Numbered from the stretch's first letter, positions 812 through 28,815 are shown. The stretch is DNA of 32,000 nucleotides from Caldivirga maquilingensis IC-167 (GCF_000018305.1 NC_009954.1:2045568-2077567); one strand, 5' to 3'. A program made the numbers and translations. The notes: generated by a model not told the origin, from the sequence alone.

Positions 812-847
812 CCGTTGATGTTTTCAAGCTTAATAAACTTATAAATC

Positions 848-1783: not shown

Positions 1784-1866
1784 TTAACCCAAGTACCCAC
1801 TTATGATTGAATCTCATCTTCATAGGTGACTTAAGTGAACTTAAGGCAACCCGGTGATGAAAGGAA

Positions 1867-2943: not shown

Positions 2944-2992
2944 CCTTTATATTTATACTTATAACGATGCACCTAAGGGTCCTTGAATGGTG

Positions 2993-4438
2993 TTAATACC
3001 TCCTTGATAATCTAAGCCAGTACTCAGCCTTCTTCTCACTGCAGGCTGCGTCACGAAGGTCACTTGGGGTTTCATCAGTATCCAGTGGTATGCCTAATGC
3101 ATCGGATTCAGTGAGCTCCATTATTCTCCTACCGCATTCATCATCGCCACTCCACGGAACCTCAACCACACCACCCTCATTGAGCAATGCCTTAGCTTCA
3201 CTTACATTGCTGCTTCTCCTAACGTGGCTCCTTAACCACTCCCACGTTGACTTACGCATATTATCCTCTATAGCCTTCATTAATTCCCTCACGGCATCAA
3301 CGACATTACTCCTCTCCACGGCATACTTCTCGAATGTATCCCTCCTGGTTAATGTTACTGCATTATCCTTAACATCACTCGGCCCCACCTCCAGCCTAAT
3401 TGGAACACCCTTAAGCTCCCAGTGGTAGTACTTCCAGCCAGGTGTCTTATCCCTCCTATCATCAACATGAACCCTCACACCGGCATTAAGTAATTCACCG
3501 CTTACACCCTTAGCGTAATTCAATACGCTTTGATCCTCACCATACATTATCGGTATTACCACTACTTGAATTGGAGCGTACCTTGGGGGTAGGAGTAAAC
3601 CCCTATCATCACCGTTAACAGCGATCATTGACGCTATGATTCTCTCAGATATTCCGTAACTGGTGGTGTGAATGTAATGCATTTGCCCATCCTTACCCAG
3701 GTACTTCACGTCAAAAACCCTTGAGAAGTTCTCACCCAGGTAGTGAACAGTGCCTATTTGCATTGTCCTACCGTCGGGCATTATTGTATCGAAGGCTATG
3801 GTGTATACTGCACCTGCGAATTTATCCCAATCCGGTCTCCTACTTATTAAGTACGGTATGCATAATTCATCCATAATCCTCCTATATATGCCTACAGCCT
3901 CCTTAACCTGCCTCTCAGCATCATCCCTATCCGCATGGGCAGTGTGAGCCTCCTTAAACATTGAAATCTCCCTAAGCCTAATCATTGGGTGAGTCATCTT
4001 TGTTTCAGCACGAAACACACTGACTATTTGATACACCCTCAATGGTAAATCCGTGTGATCCCTTATCCAAAGCTTAAACATAGGCATCATAGCAGTCTCA
4101 CTGGTCGGCCTCAACACTAGGCGCTCCTCACCACCAGTACCCTTACTAACCCAGAAGACTTCACTCTCAAAACCCCTAATATGCTCACTCTCCTTTGAGA
4201 AGAACTCATAGGGGATGAACACGGGGAATAATACCTCCTGGTGCCCTGTCTCATCATGTAGGCGACGTATTAACGCCTCCACATTACGCCTAATAGCGAC
4301 ACCGTAAGGCCTCCATATGTAGGCCCCCTTAACAGGGTACCTGTAGTCATACACTTCAGCATCCATTATTACCTTATTAAACCACTCAATGAATGAAACC
4401 CACCTACTCCTAGGCCTCCCCTGAGGCCCCCTAACCAC
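2993..4438 (-). CDS. proS: Proline--tRNA ligase (archaeal/eukaryote-like type)
   Basis: 481 aa with class II aaRS core motifs ('LRPTSET', 'VFRAE', 'GTVHYLG'). It has an anticodon-binding domain and a C-terminal extension ending in Tyr ('SRRY'), typical of archaeal-type ProRS. The start is GTG. Confidence 0.9.
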
Positions 4439-4531
4439 CTTTAGGTTAACCGTGGCAATACAAATCCCCTGTGGTTATTGTCTCAGGTTTTATAAACATA
4501 AGCCTATTCAGTATTCAGGAGACGGATGAGG

Positions 4532-4543
4532 AATAATTAAAAG
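4532..4543 (+). promoter_or_regulatory. TATA-like box for the tldD-like gene
   Basis: 'aataattaaaag' is centred about 27 nt upstream of ATG 4565, the leaderless geometry that recurs across this window. Confidence 0.35.
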
Positions 4544-4564
4544 CCGCAACAGCGCAGTGAAATT

Positions 4565-5992
4565 ATGGAGGATGAATTAAGGAGGCTTCTAGATAAGGCC
4601 CTCAGCCTAGGTGCCTCATACGCTGAGGTTAGGTATCAGGTTGATTCAGAGAGGAGTATTAGGGTTAGGAATGGTGTACTTGAAATGTCATCAACAGACT
4701 CAACGGAGGGGTATTCGGTTAGGGTACTTTACAAGGGGGCCTGGGGCTTCTCCTCTGGGCCAAGTCCATCAATTGAGCTTGCTGAAACCGCCTTCAAGAT
4801 GGCTAGGGCAGCATCCTTATTAAAGCCTAAGGGTGCTTCACTAGCCCCCGGTGAGTTAGCATCATTAAGGTATGATGTTGTTGAGAAGGTTAAACTCAAT
4901 GATGTTCAAATTGAGGATGCCGTAAAGTACATGATGGATTTAGACAAGGCAATTAACGTGGATAAGAGACTAACCGTTAGGATACTTAACTTAAACATGA
5001 TGGAGACTAGGAAAACCATAATTAATAGTGAGGGGGCATTAGTGGAGAGTAGGGTTCCTAGGCTTGAGTTATTCATGATAATTATAGCCCATGACCCAGG
5101 TAGGGGACTTAGCCAACAGAGAAGCGAACAATACGGTGGTAGTGGTGGTTGGGAGTTGACGAAAACCCTCCGCATAGAGGAGGATGCCAAGGGGAATGCT
5201 GAAACATTGGTTAAAATCATTGATGAGGCGAAGCCCATTAAGAGTGAGGAGAAGCTTGACGTAGTATTCTCACCTGAGTTGGCGGGTATATTTGTTCACG
5301 AATCCATAGGCCACCCCAGTGAGCTAGATAGAATAATGGGTAGGGAGGGGGCGGAGGCTGGGGAATCATACATGAAGCCCAGTGACCTAGGGAATTTGAG
5401 AATTGGAAGTGAACACGTCACCATAATTGATGATCCAACGATACCGAATAGCTACGGTTACTACCTGGTTGATGAGGAGGGGGTTAAGGCTAGGCCTAGG
5501 ATCCTTGTTAATAAGGGTGTTGTTAATGAATTCCTAATGAATAGGGAGTACGCGGCGTACATTGGGGCACGTAGTAATGCCGCGGCTAGGGCAAGTGAAT
5601 TCAATAGGGAGCCGATACCGAGAATGGCTAATACTTACTTAGCCCCAGGTGATTGGAAGCCTGAGGAGTTGATTAGGGAGACTAGGAATGGGTTGTATTT
5701 CGTTTCTTACCAGGAGTGGAACATTGATGATAGGAGGTGGTTCGGTAGGTATGGTGGATTGGAGGCTTATAGGATTACTAACGGTGAATTAGGTGAATTA
5801 GTTCTAATGCCGTACGTGGAGTTAACCACCAAGGCCCTTTGGAGTAGTGTTGACGCAGTGGCCAATGACCTATCCTTCAACGCCGGTACCTGCGGTAAAG
5901 GTAACCCATCGCAGGGTGTACCCGTGTGGTTTGGTGGCGTAACCTTTAGGGCTAAGAATATACTGGTTAAGCCCCCTGTCTTAAATCAATAA
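4565..5992 (+). CDS. tldD: TldD-family metalloprotease
   Basis: 475 aa with the 'HESIGHPSE' (HExxxH) motif. Overall TldD/PmbA-like layout, including the C-terminal 'GTCGKG' region. Confidence 0.85.
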   Translation: MEDELRRLLDKALSLGASYAEVRYQVDSERSIRVRNGVLEMSSTDSTEGYSVRVLYKGAWGFSSGPSPSIELAETAFKMARAASLLKPKGASLAPGELASLRYDVVEKVKLNDVQIEDAVKYMMDLDKAINVDKRLTVRILNLNMMETRKTIINSEGALVESRVPRLELFMIIIAHDPGRGLSQQRSEQYGGSGGWELTKTLRIEEDAKGNAETLVKIIDEAKPIKSEEKLDVVFSPELAGIFVHESIGHPSELDRIMGREGAEAGESYMKPSDLGNLRIGSEHVTIIDDPTIPNSYGYYLVDEEGVKARPRILVNKGVVNEFLMNREYAAYIGARSNAAARASEFNREPIPRMANTYLAPGDWKPEELIRETRNGLYFVSYQEWNIDDRRWFGRYGGLEAYRITNGELGELVLMPYVELTTKALWSSVDAVANDLSFNAGTCGKGNPSQGVPVWFGGVTFRAKNILVKPPVLNQ

Positions 5993-6013
5993 CCCCTGTA
6001 TCCCGGATTTGGC

Positions 6014-6565
6014 TTAATTAATCCTGGTTAAGTAGGTTGCTAAATTATTGAAGGCCCTTGACCTATGCGACAACTTATTCTTTAAATCCTCACCCATCTC
6101 AGCGAACGTTAAGTCATAGCCCTCGGGAATGAAGACTGGGTCATACCCAAACCCACTACTACCCCTCGGCTCCTCACTTAACCTACCCTTAACAATACCT
6201 GTGAATAACTTAACCTCATTATTAATGCATAAGCCCACAACGGACTTAAAGTACGCACCCCTGTCCCTTGAGCCTTGAAGAAGCCTCAACAGGCCCCTTA
6301 ACCCTATTGTCCTATAAACGTACTCTGAGTAGGGTCCGGGGAAACCGTTAAGGGAATCCACGAATAAGCCGTCATCCTCAACGACAAGCCAATCAACGCA
6401 ATTTAACCTAAGAGCGTAATTAACGATCTCCTCCAAGCTATCACTCTGAATCTCAACCTTATTAATCGAATTCTCCATCACTATACTTATACCGTACTGG
6501 GAGAGTATTGAAGTAGCCTCCTTCAACTTATGTTGATTCCTAGTCACGAACCTTAAGGTCACCAT
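6014..6565 (-). CDS. Non-canonical purine NTP pyrophosphatase (HAM1/RdgB/ITPase family)
   Basis: 183 aa. Motifs 'TRNQHKLKE', 'GFPGPYS', 'GFGYDPVF' and 'SHRSRA' are typical of the family. Confidence 0.85.
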   Translation of the reverse strand: MVTLRFVTRNQHKLKEATSILSQYGISIVMENSINKVEIQSDSLEEIVNYALRLNCVDWLVVEDDGLFVDSLNGFPGPYSEYVYRTIGLRGLLRLLQGSRDRGAYFKSVVGLCINNEVKLFTGIVKGRLSEEPRGSSGFGYDPVFIPEGYDLTFAEMGEDLKNKLSHRSRAFNNLATYLTRIN

Positions 6566-6651
6566 AATAGGTCCCTAATACATGGGGAAATATACCTTTA
6601 GGTGTTTCATTACGACAGTAATACTTATTAATTCACAACACTCACCCACTA

Positions 6652-6939
6652 ATGCGTAGAGACACTGCGATTGGTGTTGCATTAATGGTGATTGGGGCAG
6701 TGGTAATAGTGGCTTACGGTTGGTTAGTCTTCGCCACCCCATGGTGGCGTATTGTACTTGAGTTAACAGGCTTCATAGCAGTCGCCGCCGTATTCGGTAT
6801 ACTGGCGTGGATTGGGTACGCCCTAGCAACCACACCACCACCAAAGCCCATTGAGGAGATTGAGAAGGAGATTCAGGAGGAGCTGCAGAAGCTTCAGGAG
6901 GAGGAGAAGAAGCAGGAGGGTAGTAAGGGGTCATCTTAA
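6652..6939 (+). CDS. Small membrane protein (2 predicted TM helices plus a Glu/Lys-rich tail)
   Basis: 95-aa ORF with two hydrophobic stretches followed by 'EEIEKEIQEELQKLQEEEKKQE'. I recognise no family. Confidence 0.45.
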   Translation: MRRDTAIGVALMVIGAVVIVAYGWLVFATPWWRIVLELTGFIAVAAVFGILAWIGYALATTPPPKPIEEIEKEIQEELQKLQEEEKKQEGSKGSS

Positions 6940-6979
6940 CATTCAAGGTTACTTAGTAATGCATTAAAATTAAAACATG

Positions 6980-7294
6980 TTAACTCCTCCTAATACCCTG
7001 TAGGGATTTTAAGTCATTGATACCGATTATGACCTTATCTAAGTAATCCGTTATAAGCACCATGGTGTATATCGACTTATCACCTATCATTAAATCAACG
7101 TGACTGTAATTAGCCTTAACTAGTGAGCAGCATGAACCAATGGTGGCCTCACCTTCAATTAATAAGCCTAATTCAACTGCAATATGCCTTGGTAAAATAC
7201 TGTGAAATGAACCGTTAACTTCACCATTAACTGTAACGCTTAATCCACTCCTCCTATTAATTACCTTAACAATCATTTCAAATCTAGAAGCCAT
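6980..7294 (-). CDS. Hypothetical protein (possibly a retropepsin-like fold lacking the catalytic Asp)
   Basis: 104-aa ORF. The pattern 'VNGEVNGSFHSILPRHIAVELGL...IIGINDL' resembles small archaeal clan-AA aspartic protease-like proteins, but NGS sits where D-T/S-G is expected. This is a weak call. Confidence 0.3.
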   Translation of the reverse strand: MASRFEMIVKVINRRSGLSVTVNGEVNGSFHSILPRHIAVELGLLIEGEATIGSCCSLVKANYSHVDLMIGDKSIYTMVLITDYLDKVIIGINDLKSLQGIRRS

Positions 7295-7385
7295 ACTGGT
7301 TTAATTAAACCTAACTCGTGATGAATCTAGGTATGAGGCAATAGTTTTAAGCCTATCATTAATTAAGCTTAAATCAGGGGGTGCC

Positions 7386-7673
7386 ATGGGGAGTGGGGTT
7401 AGGGTAAGGGTAATTGTTAAGGGTATTGTGCAGGGTGTGGGTTTTAGGTCATTCATTAGGCGTCATGCCACGGCCCTCGGTTTAACAGGCTATGTTAGGA
7501 ACCTGCCTGATGGTGAGTCCGTTGAAATAGTGGTGAGTGGACCGGAGGATAGGGTTAATGAGTTAATTAAGTTAGCTAAGAGGGGTCCACCCGCTGCTGT
7601 TGTTGATAGCGTGGAGGTGGAGCCTTATGAGGGTGTTGAGGATTTCACAGGCTTCTCAGTAAGGTATGATTAA
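7386..7673 (+). CDS. acyP: Acylphosphatase
   Basis: 95 aa with the 'VKGIVQGVGFR' phosphate-binding loop and 'GYVRNLPDG'. Confidence 0.9.
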   Translation: MGSGVRVRVIVKGIVQGVGFRSFIRRHATALGLTGYVRNLPDGESVEIVVSGPEDRVNELIKLAKRGPPAAVVDSVEVEPYEGVEDFTGFSVRYD

Positions 7674-8674
7674 GCCAGGTGAAAAACCAGTATTATGTAG
7701 GCTACATAACCCATTAAACCCAGTACCGCTACATCAGGGGTTAACCTCCTCCTCACTATATGGTAAATCACCACCATTGAAATGACCTCAACCACTATAA
7801 CGCTTACTAATGCACCTAACGTTAACCTCCAGTGGGTTAGAAGTAGACCTAATGCCGGGTATATTGTGGAGTAAAGGACCTTCTCACCCACTAATGCGGC
7901 TACAGCCATGGTGTCCCTATTCTTAAGCACCCATATTACTGCGGTTATTGATTCAGGTAAGACAGTGGCTAAGGGGACGATGATTATTGTTAATGATAAT
8001 GCATCAATAGAGAGCAGGGAGGAGGCCTCATTAATGGCGTAAACCATTAGCCTTGAGCCAATTATTAAGATAACTAGGGCTAAAGCCGCTTGGGTAATGG
8101 CTAAGGCGTATTTACGCCTACTTAAGCCAATGATAAATGACAGGTATGGTTCCTCATAATCCTCAATCACCAATCCCTGGTGAGAGTACATTAACTTAAT
8201 GTAAATTAAGTAGGTTAGAATGAGCAGTAAAGCAACCGTGTACTTTACGGTAACATTACTTATTAAGGCTGGTAGAAGTATAGTTGGGTAGAGTGCGGTG
8301 AAGAGTAGGTAAGGGATTATTAATTCCTTATTAACCTCAAGTACCGTATCATCCCTAATCCCCATTAACCTACCTATGGTTACGAAGAGGAAGAGGAATG
8401 GGAAGACTATTGTGGATATCATGAAGGGTTCACCCATTACAGTCCCAATTCCAATATCCTGCCCAGACTCACCACCGTATAGGTAAAGAGCCACTGCAAA
8501 TATAATTAATTCAGGCATTGATGTAAAGATGGGTGATATTATTGCCCCAATGAAGGATTCACCAATCCTAGACCTCCCACCCATGTACTCTAAGGCATTA
8601 GTGAACAGTAAACCCCCAGTGAAGGTTAAGGCAACTCCAATGGCAATTAAAACAACTACGTCCACTATCCCCAT
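7670..8674 (-). CDS. Ca2+/cation antiporter (CaCA) family membrane protein
   Basis: 334 aa and polytopic. It carries alpha-repeat-like 'FTSMPELIIF' and 'TVLPESITAV'. Its stop overlaps the acyP stop convergently by 4 nt. Confidence 0.7.
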   Translation of the reverse strand: MGIVDVVVLIAIGVALTFTGGLLFTNALEYMGGRSRIGESFIGAIISPIFTSMPELIIFAVALYLYGGESGQDIGIGTVMGEPFMISTIVFPFLFLFVTIGRLMGIRDDTVLEVNKELIIPYLLFTALYPTILLPALISNVTVKYTVALLLILTYLIYIKLMYSHQGLVIEDYEEPYLSFIIGLSRRKYALAITQAALALVILIIGSRLMVYAINEASSLLSIDALSLTIIIVPLATVLPESITAVIWVLKNRDTMAVAALVGEKVLYSTIYPALGLLLTHWRLTLGALVSVIVVEVISMVVIYHIVRRRLTPDVAVLGLMGYVAYIILVFHLA

Positions 8675-8808
8675 TCATTAAGGTGAATTAATCAGCCTAT
8701 TTAAACTAAACTCAAGGTATTGTTGATGAGGCCCATCCCTAGTTACTTAAGTAGTAACGCATTGTGAACCACCCCAGGTTTTATTAATCCCTAAGCCGTG
8801 GTTTAAGC

Positions 8809-9219
8809 ATGTCCAGTAACCCCTGGGATGTAGTCTCGGAGTACGTGAACTCGCTTAGTGGATTAAAACCATTATTAGTCATAATGCATGGGTTATGGGT
8901 AACCGGTGAAGCATTCCTGATGGAGTCTAAACCACCCGTAGACTTGATAATCATCGCCGATAATGCACCAGTAGGTGTTAGGGAGGATGAGGTTAAGGGC
9001 TTAAGGATTAAGGCCAGGTTCCTCACACCGGAATCAGCGTTAAGCATGGTTGAGCAATGTGATGAGGAGTTAATTAACGCAATCTACACTGGTACATTTA
9101 TAGTGAAGGATGAGGAATTCTATAAGCGTATTGAGAATGCTTTAAATGAACAAATTAGGGAGGGTAGGTTAACTTGGGATAGTAAAAGGGGTCTTTGGGT
9201 TAAGGCATCCTTGATTTAA
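8809..9219 (+). CDS. Hypothetical protein, possible minimal nucleotidyltransferase fold
   Basis: 136 aa. 'HGLWVTGEA...PPVDLIIIAD' loosely resembles the GS-x(n)-D-x-D NTase motif. This is a weak call. Confidence 0.3.
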   Translation: MSSNPWDVVSEYVNSLSGLKPLLVIMHGLWVTGEAFLMESKPPVDLIIIADNAPVGVREDEVKGLRIKARFLTPESALSMVEQCDEELINAIYTGTFIVKDEEFYKRIENALNEQIREGRLTWDSKRGLWVKASLI

Positions 9220-9222
9220 GGC

Positions 9223-10050
9223 TTAACTGGATTTAACAACCATGAATAAGCCAATGATAGTAATCACTGCACCCACTACTTCAAGGGGTGTTACACTTGA
9301 TTTAATCATTAATGCACTGAAGTAGAGGGCTAGTATTGGTGTTAAGAGTAGTATTGACGATACTGTACTCGGCCTCTCACTGCTAATTGCCTTAAACCAG
9401 AGCATGAAGCCTAGTACCTGGGCATCAAGCACCACTAGAAGAATCAGTAAAATACCCTTAATGGTTAAGGATAATGCAGGATCAATGGGTAAAGCCAATG
9501 CAGTCACAGGTATTGATAATACTGATGATGATGCATTAGCCACCAATGGGTTAACATCCCTAAACCACATTGAGTAAAGAACAGTCCCAAGACCCCACAG
9601 TAAACCAGCCATTAAACCCACAACCACCCCAAGGCTAAGGGACAGTGAACTCAATGAAGCCACAGCAACCCCCATGAAACCCAATAAAACACCCCCAATC
9701 CTCATTAAACTCAACCTACGTTTAAGCATCAACCACTCAAAAACAGCCACAAAAAGCGGCTGCGTATATATCATTAACGCCGCTAAACCTGGATTAGGGG
9801 AGTAGAGTATTGACATGTTTATCAAAACCAGGAAAAGCCCCATGTTAAGCACCGACACTATAAGCATCCTTGAATTCAATATAAGCCTCCTAGCCAAAGG
9901 ATACATGAGTAATGAGGCGGCACCCACCCTAACCACTGAAATAACCATAGGCGAAGCATAAGCCTCAGCCATCCTTGTAAGCGGATACGCCACACCCCAC
10001 ACCAAGGCCAACGCAATAGAGTAAATCAAACCACCACTTAGCCTACTCAT
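9223..10050 (-). CDS. EamA/DMT-family transporter
   Basis: About 10 TM helices with duplicated EamA-like halves. The ORF is open to 10074, but the TATA-like 'ttttaaa' (10074-10080) abuts that ATG. The ATG at 10050 lies about 27 nt downstream of the TATA, so I prefer it. Confidence 0.7.
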   Translation of the reverse strand: MSRLSGGLIYSIALALVWGVAYPLTRMAEAYASPMVISVVRVGAASLLMYPLARRLILNSRMLIVSVLNMGLFLVLINMSILYSPNPGLAALMIYTQPLFVAVFEWLMLKRRLSLMRIGGVLLGFMGVAVASLSSLSLSLGVVVGLMAGLLWGLGTVLYSMWFRDVNPLVANASSSVLSIPVTALALPIDPALSLTIKGILLILLVVLDAQVLGFMLWFKAISSERPSTVSSILLLTPILALYFSALMIKSSVTPLEVVGAVITIIGLFMVVKSS

Positions 10051-10192
10051 CTCCCTGCACCAAATAACCCACATTTTAAACCTAACCCCTCACCGTGAAG
10101 TAAAGGAAGCCCAATTCCTCCAGGAATGAAATTAAATAATAAAGCCTAACTGAATCAAGTAAGCAACCCGCATGATGAAGATAATCATTAAA

Positions 10193-10440
10193 TTTGGAGC
10201 GCCAGAGTAGCGATAATATTAATACTGCATGCAATGATCATTAGTAATGCTGATACTACGATGCTTGTTTACCTACTCACTTAGAATTTGGACTGTCAGA
10301 GTCGAGGTAGTATTAATACTATCGCTACTCTGGCGCTCCAAAACTCAATGAGGAAGAAATTCATTGCCGGAATCATACAATTAGCATTCACTGTACATTA
10401 ACTTTAGTATTAATATTACCTCGACTCTGGCGCTCCAAAA
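10193..10440. repeat. Four copies of a ~34-bp motif arranged as forward ... forward/reverse ... reverse (MITE-like or foldback inverted repeats)
   Basis: L1 is 10193-10226 ('tttggagcgccagagtagcgataatattaatact'). R1 is 10309-10343, and its reverse complement differs from L1 at 1 position. L2 is 10287-10320 and R2 is 10406-10440, and they are also near-complementary. L2 and R1 share the palindrome 'agtattaatact' (10309-10320). Confidence 0.8.
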
Positions 10441-10550
10441 CTATGGTAACCTTGTTGATCGCGGAAGGGGCTAGGGGATTGTAATGAATTATCGTAAAAA
10501 CATAGGCTGGAGCTATGCATTATATGCCTAGTTAACTCATTAATATTAAG

Positions 10551-10632
10551 TCTCTGACCCCCTCCCCGCCCTAAAGGGCGAGGGTTCCGTTGGGGTCTCG
10601 GGTGTTACCCCCCCCCCCCCCTTTGTGGGGGC
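10551..10632. other. GC-rich structured island with a C14 homopolymer (possible small structured RNA; function unknown)
   Basis: An outer 6-bp stem (10556-10561 / 10592-10597) encloses the hairpin cgccc-taaa-gggcg (10567-10580). A C14 run (10608-10621) is followed by 'tttgt' and ggggg (10627-10631). The island contrasts strongly with the AT-rich flanks. Confidence 0.35.
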
Positions 10633-10735
10633 TACTTGATTATGATCAAAAAGGAATACCCCTAAACCATGTTGATGGATTCTTGAATTCAGACTCAGTG
10701 AGCATAGCCTACTACTAATGCTTGGTTTAAAGCCT

Positions 10736-11311
10736 CTATGGTGGGGGTGGTGCTGTGAAGACGTAGTATTGTTCATTCCCCTGAAGCTCCCTTATAATCC
10801 TCTCAACGATAAGCCTCTGCACATTAATCCCAATCCTATTCTTAAAGTCATCAAAGCTTTCAAAGGGCTTCTTAACCCTCTCCTCAAGCACCTGGTTAAG
10901 GGTCTTCTTACCAATACCCTTAAGTAATTCAAGACTATGTAGTTTTAATGTAAGTGGCCCGGCCTTATTAATCCAGTCTATGAAGAACTTCTCCCTAACC
11001 TTAACAATCTTCTCCACCACAGCCTCAAGCTCCTGCTTAGCCTGTGGCGTTAATTCATCGTACTTAAGCCTCCTAACAATCTTATTCACTTTATCCCTAA
11101 CCCCATTACCAATGTAAACCCTCTCCCCAATCTCCACAGTAGCCTCATGCTTAAGCGTAACCTCAAGAAGCGTGAAGTACTCCTCCCCAACAACCTGCAG
11201 GTAAGTGTCCCTCCTAGGGAAGCCCCTCCTAATAATCTCAGCCTCCTTCATTAAAGCCTCCTCAGGCGGTATTATGTCTAGGACGTAGGCGTAATCCTCC
11301 TTCCTAACCAC
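10736..11311 (-). CDS. DUF655-family HhH nucleic-acid-binding protein
   Basis: 191 aa with an N-terminal 'EDYAYVLD..' OB-like part and a C-terminal helix-hairpin-helix 'LELLKGIGKKT'. It lies directly downstream of the Rpo4/F-like gene, as in many archaea. Confidence 0.65.
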   Translation of the reverse strand: MVRKEDYAYVLDIIPPEEALMKEAEIIRRGFPRRDTYLQVVGEEYFTLLEVTLKHEATVEIGERVYIGNGVRDKVNKIVRRLKYDELTPQAKQELEAVVEKIVKVREKFFIDWINKAGPLTLKLHSLELLKGIGKKTLNQVLEERVKKPFESFDDFKNRIGINVQRLIVERIIRELQGNEQYYVFTAPPPP

Positions 11312-11317
11312 ACTTAA

Positions 11318-11665
11318 TCACCCTAACTTAGCCCTATGGGAGTTAAGGAGATCCACAATCTCCTTAAGATCCTCCTCCTTAAAGGGCCTCTTCTCAACAC
11401 TTATTATTGCCTGAAGCTCCTCAGGGGTTGAGGGCATAATGTTAACCACCTGAATAGCTGTAATCCTGGCTAAACCATACTTACTCGTCAACTCCTTAAT
11501 AAGGGCCTCAGCATCCTCAGGCTTAACCTTACTATACCTCCTAAGGTAATCCAGGGTAATGTTTATTACCTGTGACTCTAAGCCATACTTAGTTACAATA
11601 TCCTCAAGTAATCTAAGCGCCTCCGGGTTACTCACGTCAATGTAATCCTTAACTTTCCTAACCAC
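11318..11665 (-). CDS. rpoF: DNA-directed RNA polymerase subunit Rpo4/F
   Basis: 115-aa helical protein. Its size, its linkage to the DUF655 gene and the 'ITAIQVVNIMP..EELQAI' HRDC-like region fit Rpo4/F. Confidence 0.6.
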   Translation of the reverse strand: MVRKVKDYIDVSNPEALRLLEDIVTKYGLESQVINITLDYLRRYSKVKPEDAEALIKELTSKYGLARITAIQVVNIMPSTPEELQAIISVEKRPFKEEDLKEIVDLLNSHRAKLG

Positions 11666-20082: not shown

Positions 20083-20907
20083 ATGAATGGTGTACTCTAC
20101 ATTGTGGGTATTGGACTTGCACCCAATCAAATAACCCAGGAGGCTATTGAAGTCCTTAAGAACACTGGTGCAGTATTCATTGAGGAGTACACGTCAATGT
20201 TTGAGGTTAAGCCAAGCGAATACTTAACCAGGATAATAGGTAAACCAGTGACACCGGTTAATAGGCGGGAGTTAGAGGAGGAGAATGGCAGTATATTAAT
20301 CAAGGCTGTTAAGGAGTATGGCTCCGCAGCCTTAGTTACAATAGGTGACCCAATGATAGCCACAACACACTCAGCACTACTGATTACTGCCGTTGAGGCG
20401 GGGTTCAGTGTTAAGGTAATTAACGGTATTAGTATAGTTTGTTCAGCTATTAGTCAAGTAGGCTTATCACCATATAAGCTTGGCCCAGTGGCCACGGTAA
20501 CCTACGAGAGGGGTGGGGTATTGAGTAGGAGGGCTTATGAAGTGCTTTTAAGCAATATAAGTAATGGGCTTCACACACTCCTACTCCTTGATATTAAGGA
20601 TGGTGGCGGCTTCATGAGTATCAAGGAGGCTGCTGAAGTATTAACTAGGATTGAGGATGAGGTTAAGTTAGGCTTAGTGAATGATGACCTAGCGGCAGTA
20701 TTTGGTTCCAGGATTGGTTGGGTTGATCAAGCAATTAAAGTCACCTCAATAACCAAGCCACCTGACCTAAAACCACCCAGCATAATAGTGGTGCCGGGTT
20801 TACTTAACCCAGTGGAATTAGACTTACTTAAGCTAGTTCACGGTGCTGATGAAGGCTTACTCAAGAGGCATATCGAGCACGTTAAGTCGTTTTTAAGGAA
20901 CCCATAG
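20083..20907 (+). CDS. dphB: Diphthine synthase
   Basis: 274 aa. It has a tetrapyrrole-methylase fold with 'LYIVGIGL', 'IEEYTS' and 'VTIGDPMIATTH', typical of archaeal DphB/Dph5. Confidence 0.85.
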   Translation: MNGVLYIVGIGLAPNQITQEAIEVLKNTGAVFIEEYTSMFEVKPSEYLTRIIGKPVTPVNRRELEEENGSILIKAVKEYGSAALVTIGDPMIATTHSALLITAVEAGFSVKVINGISIVCSAISQVGLSPYKLGPVATVTYERGGVLSRRAYEVLLSNISNGLHTLLLLDIKDGGGFMSIKEAAEVLTRIEDEVKLGLVNDDLAAVFGSRIGWVDQAIKVTSITKPPDLKPPSIIVVPGLLNPVELDLLKLVHGADEGLLKRHIEHVKSFLRNP

Positions 20908-22186
20908 CTTCACTTAAGACTTCACTAACCCTTCTTAATGCAGTGGCCCAGGTTGATTCAGGATCCTTAAATTCACCTGGGTCAACCACTAGTAGGTACA
21001 TTGACTTACCATCATTCAACCTTAAATTAACGTACCTACTTCGCCTACTTAATAGTAGTTCATAGAGCCTTGATGTTGCATCATCCTCATCATCGAAAAC
21101 TATCCCCTTATTAAGGCCTGGGAAGACGAGTATTCCCACGTTTGCGTTGTGCTCATACATGTATGCCATGACCTTAAACCTCCCAGCGGTTATGTAGCTT
21201 GGGTTAGTTGAGAACTTACACTCAAGCACTACACTACGCCTATTCTTAACATATACGTCGGGCTTACCCACAATATGCTTAATGGCTTCTTTATTAGATT
21301 CCTCAGTTAATTCATCAACCCTCTCAATAATACCCATGCTGATTGGTTTATTGAACATTAACTGCACAGAATCCCCAGTAATTGGATTAATGTAAAGTGA
21401 GTTAGAGCTCTTAACGTAACCCATTCCCCTTAAAGCAGTACTCACTAATGCGTATACAAGCACCTCATATAGCCTCCATGATAACATGACTAACGCATTA
21501 TTACCCCTAATCCTCCTATGCCTTACGTAAACACCACTATGCAGATGCTTAGTTAGGATTAGTGATTCATAGGCGATTCTCAGCCATCTTGGTGCACTTA
21601 ATGAGAATCTACCATACTCCTCCTTAATGATGATCCTATAGTTGGCTTTAGGCAATGAAGACACCTTAGGCCTTAATACATTAAGCAATCTACTTAAATT
21701 ACCTAGATCACTCCTTAATCTTAGTGCTAATTCATGATTAGGGTTAAGGCTTCGTATTACTTCCCCTAACCTCCTTACGGCCACCTTAACCCTCCTAATC
21801 ACCATAGTTGAGATCTCCCTAAGTAGCATGTATTCTGGGGCATTAATGCTGGGTAGGTAGGTTAAATAGGAGTAAAGGCTCATTGGGTATGTTACAATGG
21901 TATGCGGTACACTTAATGAACCAAGTACCTCACTGCCCTGCTCAACACTGAATTCCCTATAGGTAAGCATATCCCTGAGTGCGGAGTCTATGGAGTGTCT
22001 CAGCATCTTTAAGGATAATGAAGCAATCATTAACCTAATATACGCCTTAGTTAATTTATCAACCTTAACACCCATCCCCAATCCAATAAGTTCCTTAACA
22101 TTAGAGTATGATGAGAAGTAGTATTTACTAACCAAGTATGCTAAATTCCTTAGCCTTTCCTCCTGCTTAGTATTTTGCCTACTCAT
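20882..22186 (-). CDS. McrC-like PD-(D/E)xK nuclease subunit
   Basis: 434 aa. 'WRLYEVLVYAL' is followed by 'GKPD(310)VYVKNRRSVVLE(322)CK(324)' (nt 21215-21259) and 'FKVMAYMYEH..GILVFPG', matching the McrC layout. Its ATG overlaps the upstream stop as ATGA (22183-22186). Confidence 0.7.
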   Translation of the reverse strand: MSRQNTKQEERLRNLAYLVSKYYFSSYSNVKELIGLGMGVKVDKLTKAYIRLMIASLSLKMLRHSIDSALRDMLTYREFSVEQGSEVLGSLSVPHTIVTYPMSLYSYLTYLPSINAPEYMLLREISTMVIRRVKVAVRRLGEVIRSLNPNHELALRLRSDLGNLSRLLNVLRPKVSSLPKANYRIIIKEEYGRFSLSAPRWLRIAYESLILTKHLHSGVYVRHRRIRGNNALVMLSWRLYEVLVYALVSTALRGMGYVKSSNSLYINPITGDSVQLMFNKPISMGIIERVDELTEESNKEAIKHIVGKPDVYVKNRRSVVLECKFSTNPSYITAGRFKVMAYMYEHNANVGILVFPGLNKGIVFDDEDDATSRLYELLLSRRSRYVNLRLNDGKSMYLLVVDPGEFKDPESTWATALRRVSEVLSEAMGSLKTT

Positions 22187-23952
22187 TGTTGATCACCTTT
22201 ATTCTGTCTTAGAAATGATCCTAAGCGTTCATCAATTTCACTAAGTATCCTAGTACTTATCACACCTAGGGATGATTTTAAAGCCTCATTAAACTCAGTT
22301 AAGAGTGTTGATTCATTGTTTGAATCAAGTTCACCTACCTGAATCATCCCATTAATTATATGTAATGCATTTAAAACGGCACCGGTTGATATGCAAACCC
22401 GTTCCCTTAATTTCCTATCGCTTCTGAGGTAGTTTATGTATTTAATTATGCTGTTAAGCATGTTATCGGGAATGCTAGGCCTCAAGGCTTTAACTTCATC
22501 TTCAACATCAGTAGTATTGGATGGGCATTTAACCTCAATTACCTGGAACCTCCTAACCAGTGCATTACCGATTAAGAATAGATTCCTTAAATCCACTGCA
22601 TTAATTATTGCTATTACCCTTAGTTTCCCCAATGCCTCATCCTTATACTTACTGTAATTCTGCATGAATCTACTAGCCTCTTCATCAGCCCTATCACTAT
22701 TAACCCACTTCCCAACCTCATCAACCAATTCACTGATTAACTCCCAATTCTCTGGGTTAGGGGATCTGAATATTGTGAAGAATTCACCAAAGGCCTTATC
22801 GACATCAGCCCTATTTAACTCATCTATTATTAGGAAGAATGGTGAATCATATCCATTCGCCAACCTCTCCGCAGCCTTATTATACGCCTTAATCAGGAAA
22901 CCTGAAACCCATTTAACGGAACCACTCTCAATGGTTTCACCCCCGATTACATCTCTCCTAAACCAAAGGGAGTTAGCAGTCTTAATCATGTAACCGCCAT
23001 CCCCGGAAACACTCCTAGCCAGTAACTCAGCTAACGTGGTCTTACCCATACCTGGTGGACCAACTAACATAACATTACCCAGTAATGCACTCACGATGAA
23101 TCTACGTAATAACGCTTCATCAATACCATGCAATTTCCCCTTAATTTCACTTAATAACTCATTAATTAATTCCTTGTTAAACCCCCTAGATAATTTATTA
23201 CTTTGAGGAAATTGCCTAAGTACTGTGAATTCCTCGTAGAATTTAATCATAGAGTTAGTCTCATTATCAGTTAATAGACCCTTTATTATCTTATTCCAAA
23301 ATATATCAATTATATCTTTATCATCATAACAAATATTACCTCGGGGAATCAATTTTTCTCTACCCAATTCTTTTAATAATTTATTAATAATGAGCTTGTC
23401 TCCGGCATTTTTTAATTCATTTTCAACTGAGTCGTTATAATCTTCATACTTTATCAGTAGCTTACGAACCTCCTCATCAATCCACAGTATCCTAATTCTC
23501 CATCTAATCAGCCAATATCTATTCTCTTTCTCTTCCTCCCTCCAATACTTAAAGTTCCTATATACGTCAAAGTTTATATCAGTGATTAGACCAAAACCTA
23601 CGTAGCCTGCATTATTTATGTAGAATAAGCCGATTAAGGGCTTAATATCATTAAGGTTCCTAATTGCTTTATTATCAGCTAATAATAATCCCTCTCTATA
23701 TTTACTAACCAGTGCTCTAAAGGGAAGGCCGGTTGACTCATCAACTGAGGAAGAACTCTGCAAACTGGCTCCCCATAAAGTGTAGCCTTTTTCTCCTCGC
23801 ATGGAATACTTAAATGACCAAAACCAATGCTCTGCACGACCTGGGAAAGTACATATATTGACTTCTTTCCTGTCTCTTAACCATTCAAGTAAGTCCTTTA
23901 AATTAGTTAATTTACTAAAGGGCTCCCTATAGGTTAACCAATCCCCATACAC
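22183..23952 (-). CDS. McrB-family AAA+ GTPase with an N-terminal EVE/PUA-like domain
   Basis: 589 aa. It has Walker A 'GPPGMGKT' (nt 23038-23061), the McrB signature 'FLIIDELNRADVDKAFGEF', the NxxD motif 'NAVD' and 'RRFQVIEV'. The N-terminal ~165 aa resemble the EVE beta-barrel pattern. The start is GTG. Confidence 0.8.
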   Translation of the reverse strand: MYGDWLTYREPFSKLTNLKDLLEWLRDRKEVNICTFPGRAEHWFWSFKYSMRGEKGYTLWGASLQSSSSVDESTGLPFRALVSKYREGLLLADNKAIRNLNDIKPLIGLFYINNAGYVGFGLITDINFDVYRNFKYWREEEKENRYWLIRWRIRILWIDEEVRKLLIKYEDYNDSVENELKNAGDKLIINKLLKELGREKLIPRGNICYDDKDIIDIFWNKIIKGLLTDNETNSMIKFYEEFTVLRQFPQSNKLSRGFNKELINELLSEIKGKLHGIDEALLRRFIVSALLGNVMLVGPPGMGKTTLAELLARSVSGDGGYMIKTANSLWFRRDVIGGETIESGSVKWVSGFLIKAYNKAAERLANGYDSPFFLIIDELNRADVDKAFGEFFTIFRSPNPENWELISELVDEVGKWVNSDRADEEASRFMQNYSKYKDEALGKLRVIAIINAVDLRNLFLIGNALVRRFQVIEVKCPSNTTDVEDEVKALRPSIPDNMLNSIIKYINYLRSDRKLRERVCISTGAVLNALHIINGMIQVGELDSNNESTLLTEFNEALKSSLGVISTRILSEIDERLGSFLRQNKGDQQ

Positions 23953-23974: not shown

Positions 23975-23983
23975 CTTTAAAAG
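23975..23983 (-). promoter_or_regulatory. TATA-like box for the McrBC-type operon
   Basis: The minus-strand sequence 'cttttaaag' is centred about 27 nt upstream of the GTG start at 23952. Confidence 0.35.
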
Positions 23984-26076: not shown

Positions 26077-26577
26077 TTAGGTGGATTGCTTAAGTATTAC
26101 CACTCCCCTAGGATCCTTAACCCTAACTGCTAAGATTTCCCATAACCTAAACTCATGGTCACCATCCCCAGCACCTAAGTACACTAAGGCTGTATCCACC
26201 CCAACGGCTACATCAATTACTGACTGATGGGTTGAGGCAAGTATTGCTTCATCATCCCTTAACTGCGGTATTACTACAACATCCTTAATAAGGGATTTAA
26301 CCCTAGTTAACTCCATGACACCGGTCCTCTCATTAACCATAAGCAACCTAGTATACCTACTAGGACTAGTGAAGAGTACGTAAGGCTCAGGCACGTAGTT
26401 TGCGTATAATGCATTAACGGCGCTTGAAACCTCATTAACTGCTGAACCAGGGGTGTCCCATGGTGATATCGCCATGGTTTTAACCTTAGGGTTACTTAAT
26501 ATACCGTTAAGTATCATTGAATCCTCTTCGTAGGTGAACCTGACCGCGGCTTGATCAATGGTAACTGAGTAAACCAC
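26077..26577 (-). CDS. Encapsulin (family 1, Linocin_M18-like) shell protein, C-terminal two-thirds only; probably the intact remnant of a disrupted gene
   Basis: 'PYVLFTSPSRYTRL...ERTGVMEL...DVAVGVDTALVYLGAGDGDHEFRLWEILAVRVKDPRGVVIL' aligns by eye with the P/A-domain region of T. maritima and M. xanthus encapsulins, as I recall them. It starts at an internal GTG, and the upstream frame is broken (see findings). Confidence 0.6.
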   Translation of the reverse strand: MVYSVTIDQAAVRFTYEEDSMILNGILSNPKVKTMAISPWDTPGSAVNEVSSAVNALYANYVPEPYVLFTSPSRYTRLLMVNERTGVMELTRVKSLIKDVVVIPQLRDDEAILASTHQSVIDVAVGVDTALVYLGAGDGDHEFRLWEILAVRVKDPRGVVILKQST

Positions 26578-27978: not shown

Positions 27979-28815
27979 GTGGTTAGTGAGTTGCTTTTTA
28001 CTGTTATTGGATTGTCTGTTACTGTGATTAGTGTACTTGGTGGTTCATTGTATTGGCTTGGCGGTAAGTTTAAGGAGATTGATTTAAGGTTTAAAGGCAT
28101 TGATGAAAAATTTAATCAAATTAATGAGAGGTTTAATCAAATCAATGAGGGGCTTAAGACCATTAATGATAGGCTTAAGCAGGTTGATGAGAGGTTTAGG
28201 CAGGTAGATGAAAGATTCAATCAAATTGATGAGAGGTTCAGGCAGATTGATGATAGATTTAAACAGATTGATGAGAGATTTAGACAAATGGATGAAAGAT
28301 TCAGGCAGATGGATAATAGATTTGGGCAAATAGATGAGAGATTTAAACAGATTGATGAAAGGTTTAGGCGTATTGATGAAAGATTCAGTGAGTTGAAGGG
28401 TTACATGGATGAGAAGTTTAAGGATGTTGACGCTAGGTTTAATCAATTAGGTAATAGGGTTGATAGGGTTGCTGAGGCCTTTGGGGATTACCAGGAGTTC
28501 TTCGTTGAGTTCCTAACCACTGAGGGTGTTATTAAGCGGGATAAGGCTGATATGGTTAGGAATGAGGCTAAGAGGATTATGAGGTTAATTAGGATTAACC
28601 CATTGAGTAGGGAGGAGTATGAGAGGCTTAAGGAGCTTCTCGATAAGGATGATTTAACTTATGATGAGGCCATTGAGTTGAGGGATTTGGCTAGGAAGAT
28701 AATTAAGGAGTATGGTGAATACCCTGAGGCTTGGAAACTACACATATATGCATCAATAATGGTTGGTTTAGCCATGTTGAAGAAGGGCAGGGAGGGTGAG
28801 GGGAGGCAATCGTGA
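27979..28815 (+). CDS. Membrane-anchored coiled-coil protein with about 15 tandem 'ERFxQID' heptads
   Basis: 278 aa. An N-terminal TM helix is followed by ~105 residues of near-perfect heptads and then a helical C-terminal domain. The start is GTG. Confidence 0.7.
   Translation: MVSELLFTVIGLSVTVISVLGGSLYWLGGKFKEIDLRFKGIDEKFNQINERFNQINEGLKTINDRLKQVDERFRQVDERFNQIDERFRQIDDRFKQIDERFRQMDERFRQMDNRFGQIDERFKQIDERFRRIDERFSELKGYMDEKFKDVDARFNQLGNRVDRVAEAFGDYQEFFVEFLTTEGVIKRDKADMVRNEAKRIMRLIRINPLSREEYERLKELLDKDDLTYDEAIELRDLARKIIKEYGEYPEAWKLHIYASIMVGLAMLKKGREGEGRQS
28075..28392 (+). repeat. Intragenic 21-bp tandem repeat (about 15 units) encoding the heptads
   Basis: Units such as 'gatgagaggtttaggcaggta' and 'gatgaaagattcaggcagatg' recur. 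The periodicity also produces the artefactual antisense ORF 28084..28446. Confidence 0.9.

What the first reader, a model, noticed from the sequence alone, without database searches (positions are those of the whole stretch)
20882..23952. Two-gene McrBC-type (modification-dependent restriction-like) cassette embedded among archaeal housekeeping genes
The 589-aa protein carries the diagnostic McrB-family GTPase motifs. These are Walker A GPPGMGKT, 'FLIIDELNRADVDKAFGEF' (DExNRA..FGE) and the NxxD motif 'NAVD'. The 434-aa partner starts inside the upstream stop (ATGA, 22183-22186). It carries 'RLYEVLV', then 'KPD-x11-ECK' (PD-ExK) and 'AYMYEH', which is the McrC layout. Both proteins look highly diverged from the E. 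coli prototypes. The McrB-like protein has a long non-canonical N-terminal region of about 290 aa ahead of the AAA+ core. This is the best candidate in the window for a poorly characterised archaeal defence system.
Basis: partly seen in the sequence, partly recalled or inferred. Interest (0 to 1): 0.75.

Follow-up and report, generated by a model that had tools for sequence, protein, structure and literature searches.

The report
Divergent archaeal McrBC-type restriction cassette
Two overlapping genes in Caldivirga maquilingensis encode a diverged but intact McrBC-type enzyme (a motor that probably reads a modified DNA base, plus a nuclease) that most likely cuts modified foreign DNA; it is a new member of a known defence family, not a new kind of system.

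Summary
Two co-directional minus-strand ORFs (589 aa, 22183-23952; 434 aa, 20882-22186) overlap in ATGA, and every quoted motif is at the stated place.

The 589-aa protein has a McrB-type AAA+ core. Its family profile matches E. coli McrB at 99.3 % (E 2.4e-20). Walker A, DExNRA, N451-x-x-D454 and R467-R468 are invariant in 31 homologues.

The 434-aa partner is invisible to Pfam, NCBIfam and PADLOC McrC models, but it is McrC-like by four independent lines:
- The best structural match is T. gammatolerans McrC (E 1.8e-7).
- It has profile-level homology to a bona fide DUF2357 protein (94.6 %).
- The E241/D310/(E/D)322/K324 nuclease site is intact and conserved.
- It is adjacent to the ATPase in 22 of 24 related genomes.

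The "non-canonical" N-terminus is a YTH/PUA-like modified-base reader (residues 1-160) plus a helical linker. Related ATPases carry EVE or EcMcrB-type readers instead, so this is a swappable specificity module.

The target modification and the nucleotide used are unknown. Verdict: a new, uncharacterised member of a known kind; moderate-to-low interest.

The parts
22183..23952 (-). McrB-like AAA+ NTPase gene, 589 aa, GTG start (GenBank ABW02808.1). The RefSeq model WP_052290738.1 starts 63 codons downstream at TTG 23763.
   Evidence: ORF. Homologues align from residue 1, with invariant C34, W43, Y49, S50 and W60 upstream of the RefSeq start. Accessions and lengths.
23976..23982 (-). TATA-box-like TTTTAAA about 27 nt upstream of the GTG; a candidate archaeal promoter for a leaderless bicistronic transcript.
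   Evidence: Read directly from the sequence. The spacing rule is general knowledge of crenarchaeal promoters. Inferred, not tested.
23473..23952 (-). N-terminal YTH/PUA-like modified-base reader domain (residues 1-160; beta-barrel core 32-158).
   Evidence: AF2 model of residues 1-278: pLDDT 84, pTM 0.81. Foldseek against PDB hits YTH domains (YTHDF3 4.8e-4; YTHDF1, Mmi1, YTHDC1 with N6mA DNA), then MJECL36, ASCH, SRA and EVE-like. No Pfam or PDB sequence match.
23119..23472 (-). Helical linker module (residues 161-278) between reader and motor, with invariant C208 and Y239 and near-invariant N206.
   Evidence: Helices 160-274 in the model. Conservation.
22183..23118 (-). McrB-type AAA+ core (residues 279-589): Walker A 23038-23061, conserved ANSLWFRRDVIGGE 22936-22977, Walker B/DExNRA 22780-22836, consensus loop N451-A-V-D454 22591-22602, tandem Arg R467-R468-F469 22546-22554.
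   Evidence: AAA_5 1.2e-12. EcMcrB chains are the best PDB hits. hhalign against EcMcrB 99.3 %, E 2.4e-20, residues in register. Invariance. Coordinates.
20882..22186 (-). McrC-like partner gene, 434 aa (ABW02807.1 / WP_012187026.1). Its start codon overlaps the upstream stop (ATGA), and its 3' end overlaps the convergent dph5-like gene by 26 nt.
21422..22186 (-). McrC 'finger'/DUF2357-like N-terminal domain (residues 1-255): helical bundle plus a long beta-hairpin stalk (residues 76-111, 21854-21961) carrying invariant G89 and T109 and near-invariant R77, E78, F79, T96, Y100 and P101.
   Evidence: AF2 model pLDDT 79.5, pTM 0.75. Full-length Foldseek alignment to T. gammatolerans McrC 6ut7_G, E 1.8e-7. 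hhalign to DUF2357 protein P0270 94.6 % over columns 91-357. G89/T96 align with EcMcrC G74/T81. The finger-domain description comes from PMC7680126.
20882..21421 (-). C-terminal PD-(D/E)xK nuclease domain (residues 256-434). Active-site candidates are E241 (helix WRLYEVLV, 21455-21478), D310/E322/K324 (21215-21265) and K338/Y342 (21152-21181).
   Evidence: Invariance in 28 close homologues and 61 distant ones. D310/E322/K324 align with EcMcrC D244/D257/K259. Weak Cas4 matches. Can2 and BstYI nuclease structural hits.

Best explanation
The cassette encodes a Type IV (modification-dependent) restriction enzyme of the McrBC type.

Shown:
- The 589-aa protein is a three-part McrB homologue. It has an N-terminal YTH/PUA-like beta-barrel, a helical linker, and a McrB-clade AAA+ core with all catalytic residues.
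- The 434-aa protein is a McrC homologue. It has a helical-bundle-plus-beta-stalk 'finger' domain and an intact PD-(D/E)xK nuclease.
- The two genes are translationally coupled (ATGA) and are kept together across Thermoproteota.

Inferred by analogy with the E. coli and T. gammatolerans complexes:
1. The reader domain flips out and cages a modified base in invading DNA. The candidate is N6-methyladenine, as for the YTH domain of T. gammatolerans McrB, but the specificity is unknown.
2. The AAA+ domains form an NTP-bound hexamer.
3. One McrC inserts its stalk into the pore and stimulates NTP hydrolysis through the N451-x-x-D454 loop.
4. Two such complexes dimerise through McrC.
5. NTP-driven translocation brings the nuclease domains to cut both DNA strands.

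The host is presumed to lack the targeted modification, and no methyltransferase accompanies the cassette. Whether the motor uses GTP, ATP or both cannot be read from the sequence.
For: - ATPase: AAA_5 1.2e-12. EcMcrB chains are the best PDB matches at 4e-8, and T. gammatolerans McrB scores 7.5e-5. hhalign of the family profile against EcMcrB gives 99.3 %, E 2.4e-20, with N451/D454/R467/R468 on N333/D336/R348/R349. These residues are invariant in 31/31 sequences.
- Partner structure: the top Foldseek hit is T. gammatolerans McrC (6ut7_G), E 1.8e-7, 442 aligned columns.
- Partner profile homology: the family profile reaches proteins that pass the Pfam DUF2357 threshold (P0270, 28.1 bits against a cut-off of 23.3). 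hhalign to P0270 gives 94.6 %, E 6.7e-8.
- Partner motifs: these are in register with EcMcrC. The nuclease triad plus E241 is conserved.
- Linkage: a partner-family ORF is adjacent in 22 of 24 species-representative loci of the close AAA+ subfamily. The gene order varies (B-then-C, C-then-B, divergent), which argues for functional rather than accidental linkage.
- Reader: YTH/PUA-like fold. It is replaced by EVE or MrcB_N (the EcMcrB 5mC reader) in ATPases of the same subfamily.
- Context: no methyltransferase in the 32-kb window. The cassette is the lowest-GC 3-kb stretch of the window (0.383 against 0.438). It evolves faster than its neighbours (68-76 % against 81-96 % identity to Caldivirga UBA161).
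Against: - There are no experimental data for any member of this archaeal subfamily.
- The partner has no direct significant match to curated McrC models. The Foldseek TM-score to T. gammatolerans McrC is only 0.33.
- PADLOC models do not recognise either protein as McrB or McrC.
There is no sequence support, and the aromatic-cage residues could not be mapped.
- The activating basic residue of McrC (Arg263 in T. gammatolerans, Lys157 in E. coli) could not be identified with confidence.
- The cassette sits beside the same beta-CASP/dph5 genes in Caldivirga and Thermocladium and has no mobility marks. That is less typical of a mobile defence island.
- YTH domains also read RNA.
Confidence: 0.78

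Rival explanations
1. This is an RNA-directed McrBC-like system. The YTH-like domain reads a modified base in RNA (viral or cellular), and the complex cleaves or remodels RNA, as proposed for CoCoNuT-type McrBC relatives.
For: McrBC relatives predicted to target RNA exist (PMC11090510).
Against: The only characterised YTH-McrB fusion (T. gammatolerans) binds m6A DNA (PMC7680126; PMC7641849). The motor has the NxxD loop, not the NxD variant that marks the CoCoNuT branch. There are no RNA-binding accessory domains (CSD, HEPN, SmpB-like) in either protein. The same AAA+/partner subfamily also carries MrcB_N, a DNA 5mC reader.
Confidence: 0.07
2. This is a domesticated chromosomal-maintenance factor. 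The pair recognises damaged or aberrantly modified bases in the host genome and acts in repair or replication quality control rather than defence.
For: It sits among housekeeping genes and next to the same beta-CASP/dph5 genes in two Caldivirga species and in Thermocladium. It has no mobility signatures and was not found on viral contigs. The S. solfataricus homologue lies beside a HerA/NurA pair.
Against: Distribution is patchy, and several copies are split or frameshifted (Vulcanisaeta, Thermocladium modestius, Metallosphaera yellowstonensis). The sequence diverges faster than its neighbours. The GC content is low. Reader-domain swapping is the hallmark of an arms-race specificity module. 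The family is very small, with 131 cluster representatives among 1.84 billion.
Confidence: 0.07
3. This is an inactive or decaying remnant. The genes are intact ORFs but no longer form a working enzyme.
For: Relatives in other genomes are visibly disrupted. No expression data are available.
Against: Both ORFs are full length. All catalytic residues of motor and nuclease are retained. A promoter-like element and translational coupling are present. The orthologues in Caldivirga UBA161 are also intact.
Confidence: 0.05
4. This is a generic MoxR/AAA_5 chaperone-like ATPase that happens to sit next to an unrelated hypothetical protein.
For: Some source annotations of homologues say 'MoxR-like ATPase' or 'AAA family ATPase'. 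The partner has no Pfam domain.
Against: The McrB-specific DExNRA, MNxxD and RRRF motifs and the 99.3 % profile match to EcMcrB. The partner is McrC-like by fold, profile and motif. The two genes are co-inherited in 22 of 24 loci.
Confidence: 0.03

Closest known systems
Thermococcus gammatolerans McrBC (TgMcrB with YTH N-terminal domain, plus TgMcrC; PDB 6UT3-6UT8)
   Same: Two-gene archaeal system. [quoted passage not shown] TgMcrC is the best structural match of the partner.
   Different: Sequence similarity is very low: 13 % identity for the partner in the Foldseek alignment, and the TgMcrB AAA+ match is only 7.5e-5 over 28 residues. The target base is unknown.
Escherichia coli K-12 McrBC (EcoKMcrBC)
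   Same: Overlapping mcrB-mcrC genes. The AAA+ core is homologous (99.3 %), with identical catalytic logic. The McrC motifs G-x-I/L-D/E-x-x-x-T and D...D/E-x-K are alignable.
   Different: The NCBIfam McrB equivalog score is 33.7 against a cut-off of 637. The partner-to-EcMcrC profile match is not significant (11 %). There is no adjacent Type I R-M system.
EVE-McrB and YTH-like-McrB fusions catalogued by Bell et al. 2020 (PMC7641849) and the McrBC census (PMC11090510)
   Same: A PUA-superfamily modified-base reader fused to a McrB-like GTPase, mostly in archaea, with NxxD-type motors.
   Different: This Thermoproteota subfamily's reader is not detected by the Pfam EVE or YTH models, and its McrC is not detected by the Pfam DUF2357 or McrBC models. 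I could not verify whether these particular proteins were included in those censuses.

Membership tests
McrB-like AAA+ NTPase | Walker A GxxGxGKT and Walker B D-E-x-N-R-A | tested here: met
   GPPGMGKT 298-305 and IIDELNRA 375-382. G298, K304, T305, D377, E378, N380 and R381 are invariant in 31/31 sequences.
McrB-like AAA+ NTPase | Consensus loop MNxxDRS (NxxD) replacing sensor I (PMC7680126) | tested here: met
   I-N451-A-V-D454-L-R456-N (family consensus M-N-L-V-D-x-R-N). N451 and D454 are invariant. The loop aligns with EcMcrB M-N333-T-A-D336-R-S. The final S is N in this family.
McrB-like AAA+ NTPase | Tandem trans-acting arginines (sensor-II substitute plus Arg finger), A-L-R-R-R-F | tested here: met
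   A464-L-V-R467-R468-F469. R467, R468 and F469 are invariant and in register with EcMcrB R348/R349.
McrB-like AAA+ NTPase | Significant profile similarity to characterised McrB | tested here: met
   hhalign against EcMcrB 99.3 %, E 2.4e-20 over 192 columns. phmmer against 6hz4 gives 4e-8.
McrB-like AAA+ NTPase | Passes the curated equivalog or defence-system models (NCBIfam PRK11331; PADLOC) | tested here: not met
   NCBIfam gives 33.7 bits against a cut-off of 637. No PADLOC McrB hit. It is therefore not an orthologue of EcMcrB, only a family member.
McrB-like AAA+ NTPase | GTP preference, hexamerisation, stimulation by McrC | not testable with these tools
   GTP read-out lies outside the AAA+ core and differs between homologues (PMC7680126). 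Some homologues are promiscuous (LlaI preprint).
McrC | Direct match to Pfam PF10117 (McrBC) or PF09823 (DUF2357) | tested here: not met
   No Pfam, NCBIfam or PADLOC McrC hit for the window protein. The family profile against PDB sequences finds nothing. hhalign against EcMcrC gives only 11 %.
McrC | N-terminal finger domain (helical bundle plus long beta stalk) homologous to DUF2357 | tested here: met
   The model shows a beta-hairpin at 76-111 on a helical bundle. Full-length Foldseek match to T. gammatolerans McrC, E 1.8e-7. 8 of 61 distant family members hit DUF2357. P0270 passes the gathering threshold and aligns to the family at 94.6 %, E 6.7e-8, including columns 91-250. G89/T96 fall on EcMcrC G74/T81.
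McrC | C-terminal PD-(D/E)xK nuclease with intact catalytic residues | tested here: met
   E241, P309-D310 and K324 are invariant; E322 is E in 20 and D in 8 sequences. The same residues are invariant in 61 distant members. They align with EcMcrC D244/D257/K259.
McrC | Conserved basic residue that activates the McrB site (T. gammatolerans Arg263 / E. coli Lys157) | tested here: inconclusive
   A near-conserved Arg (R192, before the P199-x-W201 motif) is a candidate from the alignment. The region aligns ambiguously with EcMcrC and the wider clade.
McrC | Encoded next to, and co-inherited with, a McrB-like gene | tested here: met
   ATGA overlap here. Adjacent in 22 of 24 close loci and in S. 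solfataricus, M. sedula and Acidilobus.
YTH / PUA-like modified-base reader | [quoted passage not shown] | tested here: met
   Model elements are E32-38, H40-52, E57-62, H79-89, E106-112, E116-128 and E149-158. Foldseek hits to many YTH domains (best 4.8e-4, probability 1.00), then ASCH, SRA and EVE-like.
YTH / PUA-like modified-base reader | Sequence membership of Pfam YTH (PF04146) or EVE (PF01878) | tested here: not met
   0 of 22 family members hit either model at E<=1. There is no PDB sequence hit either.
YTH / PUA-like modified-base reader | Aromatic cage for the flipped modified base | tested here: inconclusive
   Invariant W43, Y49, W60 and F134 and near-invariant W137 lie where cage residues would be expected by topology. 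No residue-level structural superposition was available.
Type IV restriction system | Nuclease system without a cognate protective methyltransferase | tested here: met
   No DNA methyltransferase domain in any ORF of at least 100 aa in the 32-kb window. The rest of the genome was not examined.

The most novel reading that the evidence does not exclude
This Thermoproteota-centred McrBC lineage may do more than standard m6A or 5mC restriction. Its sequence-orphan PUA-like reader, Cys-containing helical linker and DUF2357-invisible McrC could recognise a modification not yet linked to McrBC, for example one specific to crenarchaeal viruses, or a modified or damaged base in RNA or host DNA. Its stable position next to beta-CASP/dph5 across Caldivirga and Thermocladium could reflect a domesticated, non-defence role.
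Probability: 0.12. Interest if true: 0.6.

Novelty: new member of a known kind. Interest (0 to 1): 0.3.

Why it matters
McrBC is the textbook motor-driven Type IV restriction enzyme, but no crenarchaeal (Thermoproteota) member has been characterised. A 2024 review of archaeal R-M systems does not mention McrBC at all.

This family shows that standard tools (Pfam McrC/DUF2357, PADLOC) miss an intact McrC lineage and its reader domain. As a result, defence inventories of Sulfolobales and Thermoproteales, which are model hosts for archaeal virology and genetics, probably under-count Type IV systems. Such systems could affect transformation with methylated shuttle vectors.

The family also offers thermostable material for studying how YTH/PUA-type readers are coupled to the McrB motor through a long helical linker. 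None of this changes the concept of what McrBC is.

Tried and rejected
- Direct curated-model searches for the partner (Pfam, NCBIfam, PADLOC) found no McrC, only faint Cas4-type PD-ExK matches.
- The partner profile against PDB sequences returned only coiled-coil noise. The distant-member profile found only Cas4 (4ic1) for the nuclease core.
- Direct hhalign of the partner family against EcMcrC gave 11 % probability, although the aligned segment is the catalytic one.
- The viral contig scan with the partner profile found no relatives.
- Insertion marks were searched for and not found: no tRNA genes in the window, and no convincing flanking direct or inverted repeats (the 19-nt pair D11 lies inside the dph5 and KaiC coding regions and is taken as chance).
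- The sigma-70 and terminator scans were uninformative, as expected for an archaeon.
- Partners of the wider bacterial and archaeal AAA+ relatives were scanned in the hope of finding clean McrC hits. Only one weak DUF2357 hit appeared, which shows that the curated models under-cover a broad McrC clade.
- The MoxR-chaperone reading was considered and rejected (see rivals).
- A recent-insertion reading was considered and rejected. The orthologous cassette sits beside dph5 and beta-CASP in Caldivirga UBA161 and beside beta-CASP in Thermocladium.

Full report
**1. Observation**

The window comes from Caldivirga maquilingensis: the database holds proteins 100 % identical to the ATPase over its deposited 526 residues and to the whole partner. 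The ORF listing returns two co-directional minus-strand ORFs at exactly the reported coordinates. They are 22183..23952 (589 aa, GTG start) and 20882..22186 (434 aa). The second ATG lies within ATGA at 22186-22183 and overlaps the first gene's stop. E. coli mcrB and mcrC also overlap at their junction. The flanking genes are housekeeping or metabolic: a TP_methylase/diphthine-synthase type, a beta-CASP RNase, a KaiC-like ATPase, an epimerase and an SDR.

**2. Start codon**

RefSeq (WP_052290738.1) models only 526 aa, starting at TTG 23763. The original GenBank entry (ABW02808.1) has 589 aa. Homologues from Acidilobus, Caldisphaera, Sulfolobales and other lineages align from residue 1. They share invariant C34, W43, Y49, S50 and W60 upstream of the RefSeq start. 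A TTTTAAA box lies about 27 nt upstream of the GTG, which fits a leaderless crenarchaeal transcript (this last point is inference). The long form is therefore correct. The short form removes the first strand and helix of the N-terminal domain.

**3. The ATPase is a McrB-family motor**

- Pfam gives AAA_5 (1.2e-12, residues 293-469).
- The best NCBIfam hit is the McrB equivalog, but far below its cut-off (33.7 against 637 bits).
- The best PDB sequence matches are E. coli McrB chains (4e-8), and T. gammatolerans McrB also appears.
- A 31-sequence family profile aligns with the E. coli McrB AAA+ domain at 99.3 % probability, E 2.4e-20.
- In that alignment Walker A, D-E-x-N-R-A, N451/D454 (on M-N333-T-A-D336) and R467/R468 (on R348/R349) are in register. 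All of these residues are invariant.
- Niu et al. (PMC7680126) name these residues as the catalytic water-positioning loop, the sensor-II substitute and the arginine finger.
- The loop is NxxD, not the NxD form of the CoCoNuT branch.
- GTP specificity is set by elements upstream of the AAA+ core that differ between homologues. Some McrB relatives are nucleotide-promiscuous. I therefore make no call on GTP against ATP.

**4. The N-terminal 278 residues**

An AlphaFold2 model built on a 22-sequence alignment is confident (pLDDT 84, pTM 0.81). It shows an alpha/beta barrel at residues 32-158, followed by helices at 160-274. Foldseek against the PDB returns YTH domains as the leading matches: YTHDF3 at 4.8e-4, then YTHDF1, Mmi1, and YTHDC1 bound to N6mA DNA. 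MJECL36, ASCH, SRA and EVE-like proteins follow, all of them PUA-like modified-base readers. There is no sequence-level support: 0 of 22 members hit any relevant Pfam model, and there is no PDB sequence hit. The assignment is therefore at fold level only.

Within the same AAA+ subfamily, paired with the same partner family, the N-terminus is instead one of the following:
- EVE (P0045);
- MrcB_N, the 5mC reader of E. coli McrB (L020, L022, P0086);
- unassigned (Caldivirga MU80, Thermoproteus tenax and others).

That is the behaviour of a swappable specificity module. YTH-like and EVE fusions to McrB in archaea are already described (PMC7641849; T. gammatolerans McrB binds m6A DNA). One difference from T. 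gammatolerans McrB is a helical linker of about 118 residues, against seven residues there. The linker carries invariant C208 and Y239. C34 in the barrel is also invariant.

**5. The partner is McrC-like, but only remote methods show it**

Pfam, NCBIfam and PADLOC give nothing beyond faint Cas4 PD-ExK matches. Its family profile finds no PDB sequence and matches E. coli McrC at only 11 %. Four independent lines nevertheless converge.

(a) Structure. The AlphaFold2 model (pLDDT 79.5, pTM 0.75) has a helical bundle, a long beta-hairpin at 76-111 and a C-terminal alpha/beta nuclease domain. Its best PDB match is T. gammatolerans McrC (6ut7_G, E 1.8e-7, probability 1.00, 442 columns). The low TM-score (0.33) is what one expects for a multi-domain protein with flexible domain orientations. 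The architecture matches the published finger domain (antiparallel helices, helical bundle, beta-sheet stalk) plus PD-(D/E)xK description.

(b) Profile homology. An exhaustive profile search of 1.84 billion cluster representatives finds only 131 relatives. Of 61 distant full-length relatives, eight hit Pfam DUF2357 and one hits PF10117. P0270 passes the DUF2357 gathering threshold. It aligns with the family profile at 94.6 %, E 6.7e-8, over 250 columns spanning stalk, bundle and nuclease.

(c) Motifs. A bridging alignment places E. coli McrC G74/T81 (G-R-I-E-F-A-K-T) under invariant G89 and near-invariant T96. It places D244/D257/K259 under D310/E322/K324. E241, D310 and K324 are invariant, and E322 is E or D. 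The equivalent residues are invariant in the 61 distant members too.

(d) Linkage. Among the 24 loci of the close AAA+ subfamily, taken from one genome per species, 22 have a partner-family ORF directly adjacent. One of the two exceptions (L026) ends at the contig edge. The order is usually B-then-C, but it is C-then-B in S. solfataricus (hhalign E 2e-70), in L018 and in L027, and it is divergent in L019. Linkage that survives rearrangement argues for a functional pair.

**6. Context and evolution**

- The window contains no DNA methyltransferase or other defence gene.
- The cassette is the lowest-GC 3-kb stretch of the window (0.383 against 0.438).
- There are no tRNA genes or flanking repeats, and no viral-contig relatives.
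- In Caldivirga sp. UBA161 the orthologous pair sits next to the same dph5 and beta-CASP genes. On its other side, however, are Rpb4 and DUF655, which in this window lie 12 kb away. A rearrangement breakpoint therefore lies just upstream of the McrB-like gene.
- In Thermocladium the ATPase directly follows beta-CASP.
- Neighbouring proteins are 81-96 % identical between the two Caldivirga species, whereas the McrB-like and McrC-like proteins are 68 % and 76 % identical.
- Several relatives are split or frameshifted.

Taken together, this is an old resident that evolves fast and is sometimes lost, not a recent insertion.

**7. Mechanism**

*Shown:*
- the domain composition;
- intact catalytic residues;
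- translational coupling;
- conserved pairing;
- reader modularity.

*Inferred by analogy with the E. coli and T. gammatolerans complexes:*
- the motor forms an NTP-bound hexamer;
- McrC inserts its stalk into the pore and stimulates hydrolysis through the NxxD loop;
- McrC dimerises two such complexes;
- translocation leads to double-strand cleavage.

*Unknown:*
- the target modification (m6A is only the default guess from the YTH fold);
- the nucleotide preference;
- the activating basic residue of the partner (R192 is a candidate only);
- whether the invariant Cys pair matters.

**8. Comparison and novelty**

The closest system is T. gammatolerans McrBC, which has the same architecture but very low sequence identity. 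NCBI already names the Sulfolobales homologues 'McrB family protein'. UniProt calls the partner '5-methylcytosine restriction system component-like'. What this analysis adds:
- evidence for the partner's McrC identity;
- the start-codon correction;
- the observation that curated McrC/DUF2357 and PADLOC models miss this clade and many partners of the wider clade.

No crenarchaeal McrBC has been characterised; a 2024 review of archaeal R-M systems does not mention McrBC. This is a new member of a known kind. Interest is modest (0.3).

Noticed in passing
window 23761-23952: The current RefSeq model of the ATPase (WP_052290738.1, 526 aa) starts at TTG 23763 and drops 63 conserved N-terminal residues of the reader domain. 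The GenBank model (ABW02808.1, 589 aa, GTG 23952) agrees with the homologues.
   Followed up: yes
window 10736-11665 versus L005 2931-3860: Rpb4 and DUF655 genes directly flank the McrB-like gene in Caldivirga sp. UBA161, but in this genome they lie about 12 kb away and inverted. A rearrangement breakpoint therefore sits immediately upstream of the cassette.
   Followed up: partly
window 20882-20907: The 3' ends of the McrC-like gene and the convergent dph5-like (TP_methylase) gene overlap by 26 nt. The same overlap is present in Caldivirga UBA161 (L005 7271-7296).
   Followed up: partly
They could form a disulfide or a metal site. This could not be assessed without model coordinates.
   Followed up: no
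L023, L024, L027, L033, L018 (6153-7237): Several relatives have the ATPase or partner split over two ORFs: Vulcanisaeta distributa, Thermocladium modestius, Metallosphaera yellowstonensis, and a second partner copy in Sulfolobaceae RB850M. These are either pseudogenes or draft-assembly frameshifts.
   Followed up: no
L001 (S. solfataricus) 1-11244: The S. solfataricus homologous pair lies between a SLFN-g3-type helicase, an ATPase_2/WHD_MCM protein and a HerA/NurA pair. This is possibly a defence- or repair-enriched neighbourhood.
   Followed up: no
L035-L089 downstream ORFs: The partners of the wider bacterial and archaeal 'ADxDKAFG' McrB-like clade share G-R-I-D-W-x-x-T, D-x-P-E-N and R-P-D...E-x-K...Y-K-x-x-G-Y motifs. 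Even so, 8 of 9 tested have no Pfam McrC or DUF2357 hit, so curated models under-cover a large McrC clade.
   Followed up: partly
window 26077-26577 (-): A 166-aa ORF matches only the C-terminal part (positions 104-252 of 253) of the Linocin_M18/encapsulin profile. It is either a truncated encapsulin gene or a mis-set start.
   Followed up: no
window 27979-28815 (+): A 278-aa coiled-coil protein (only low-specificity coiled-coil Pfam matches) lies in a second low-GC stretch (0.38-0.40) with strong positive GC skew.
   Followed up: no
window 22664-22993 (+): A 109-aa ORF lies antisense inside the McrB-like gene. It is Ser/Leu-rich and most likely a spurious shadow ORF.
   Followed up: no
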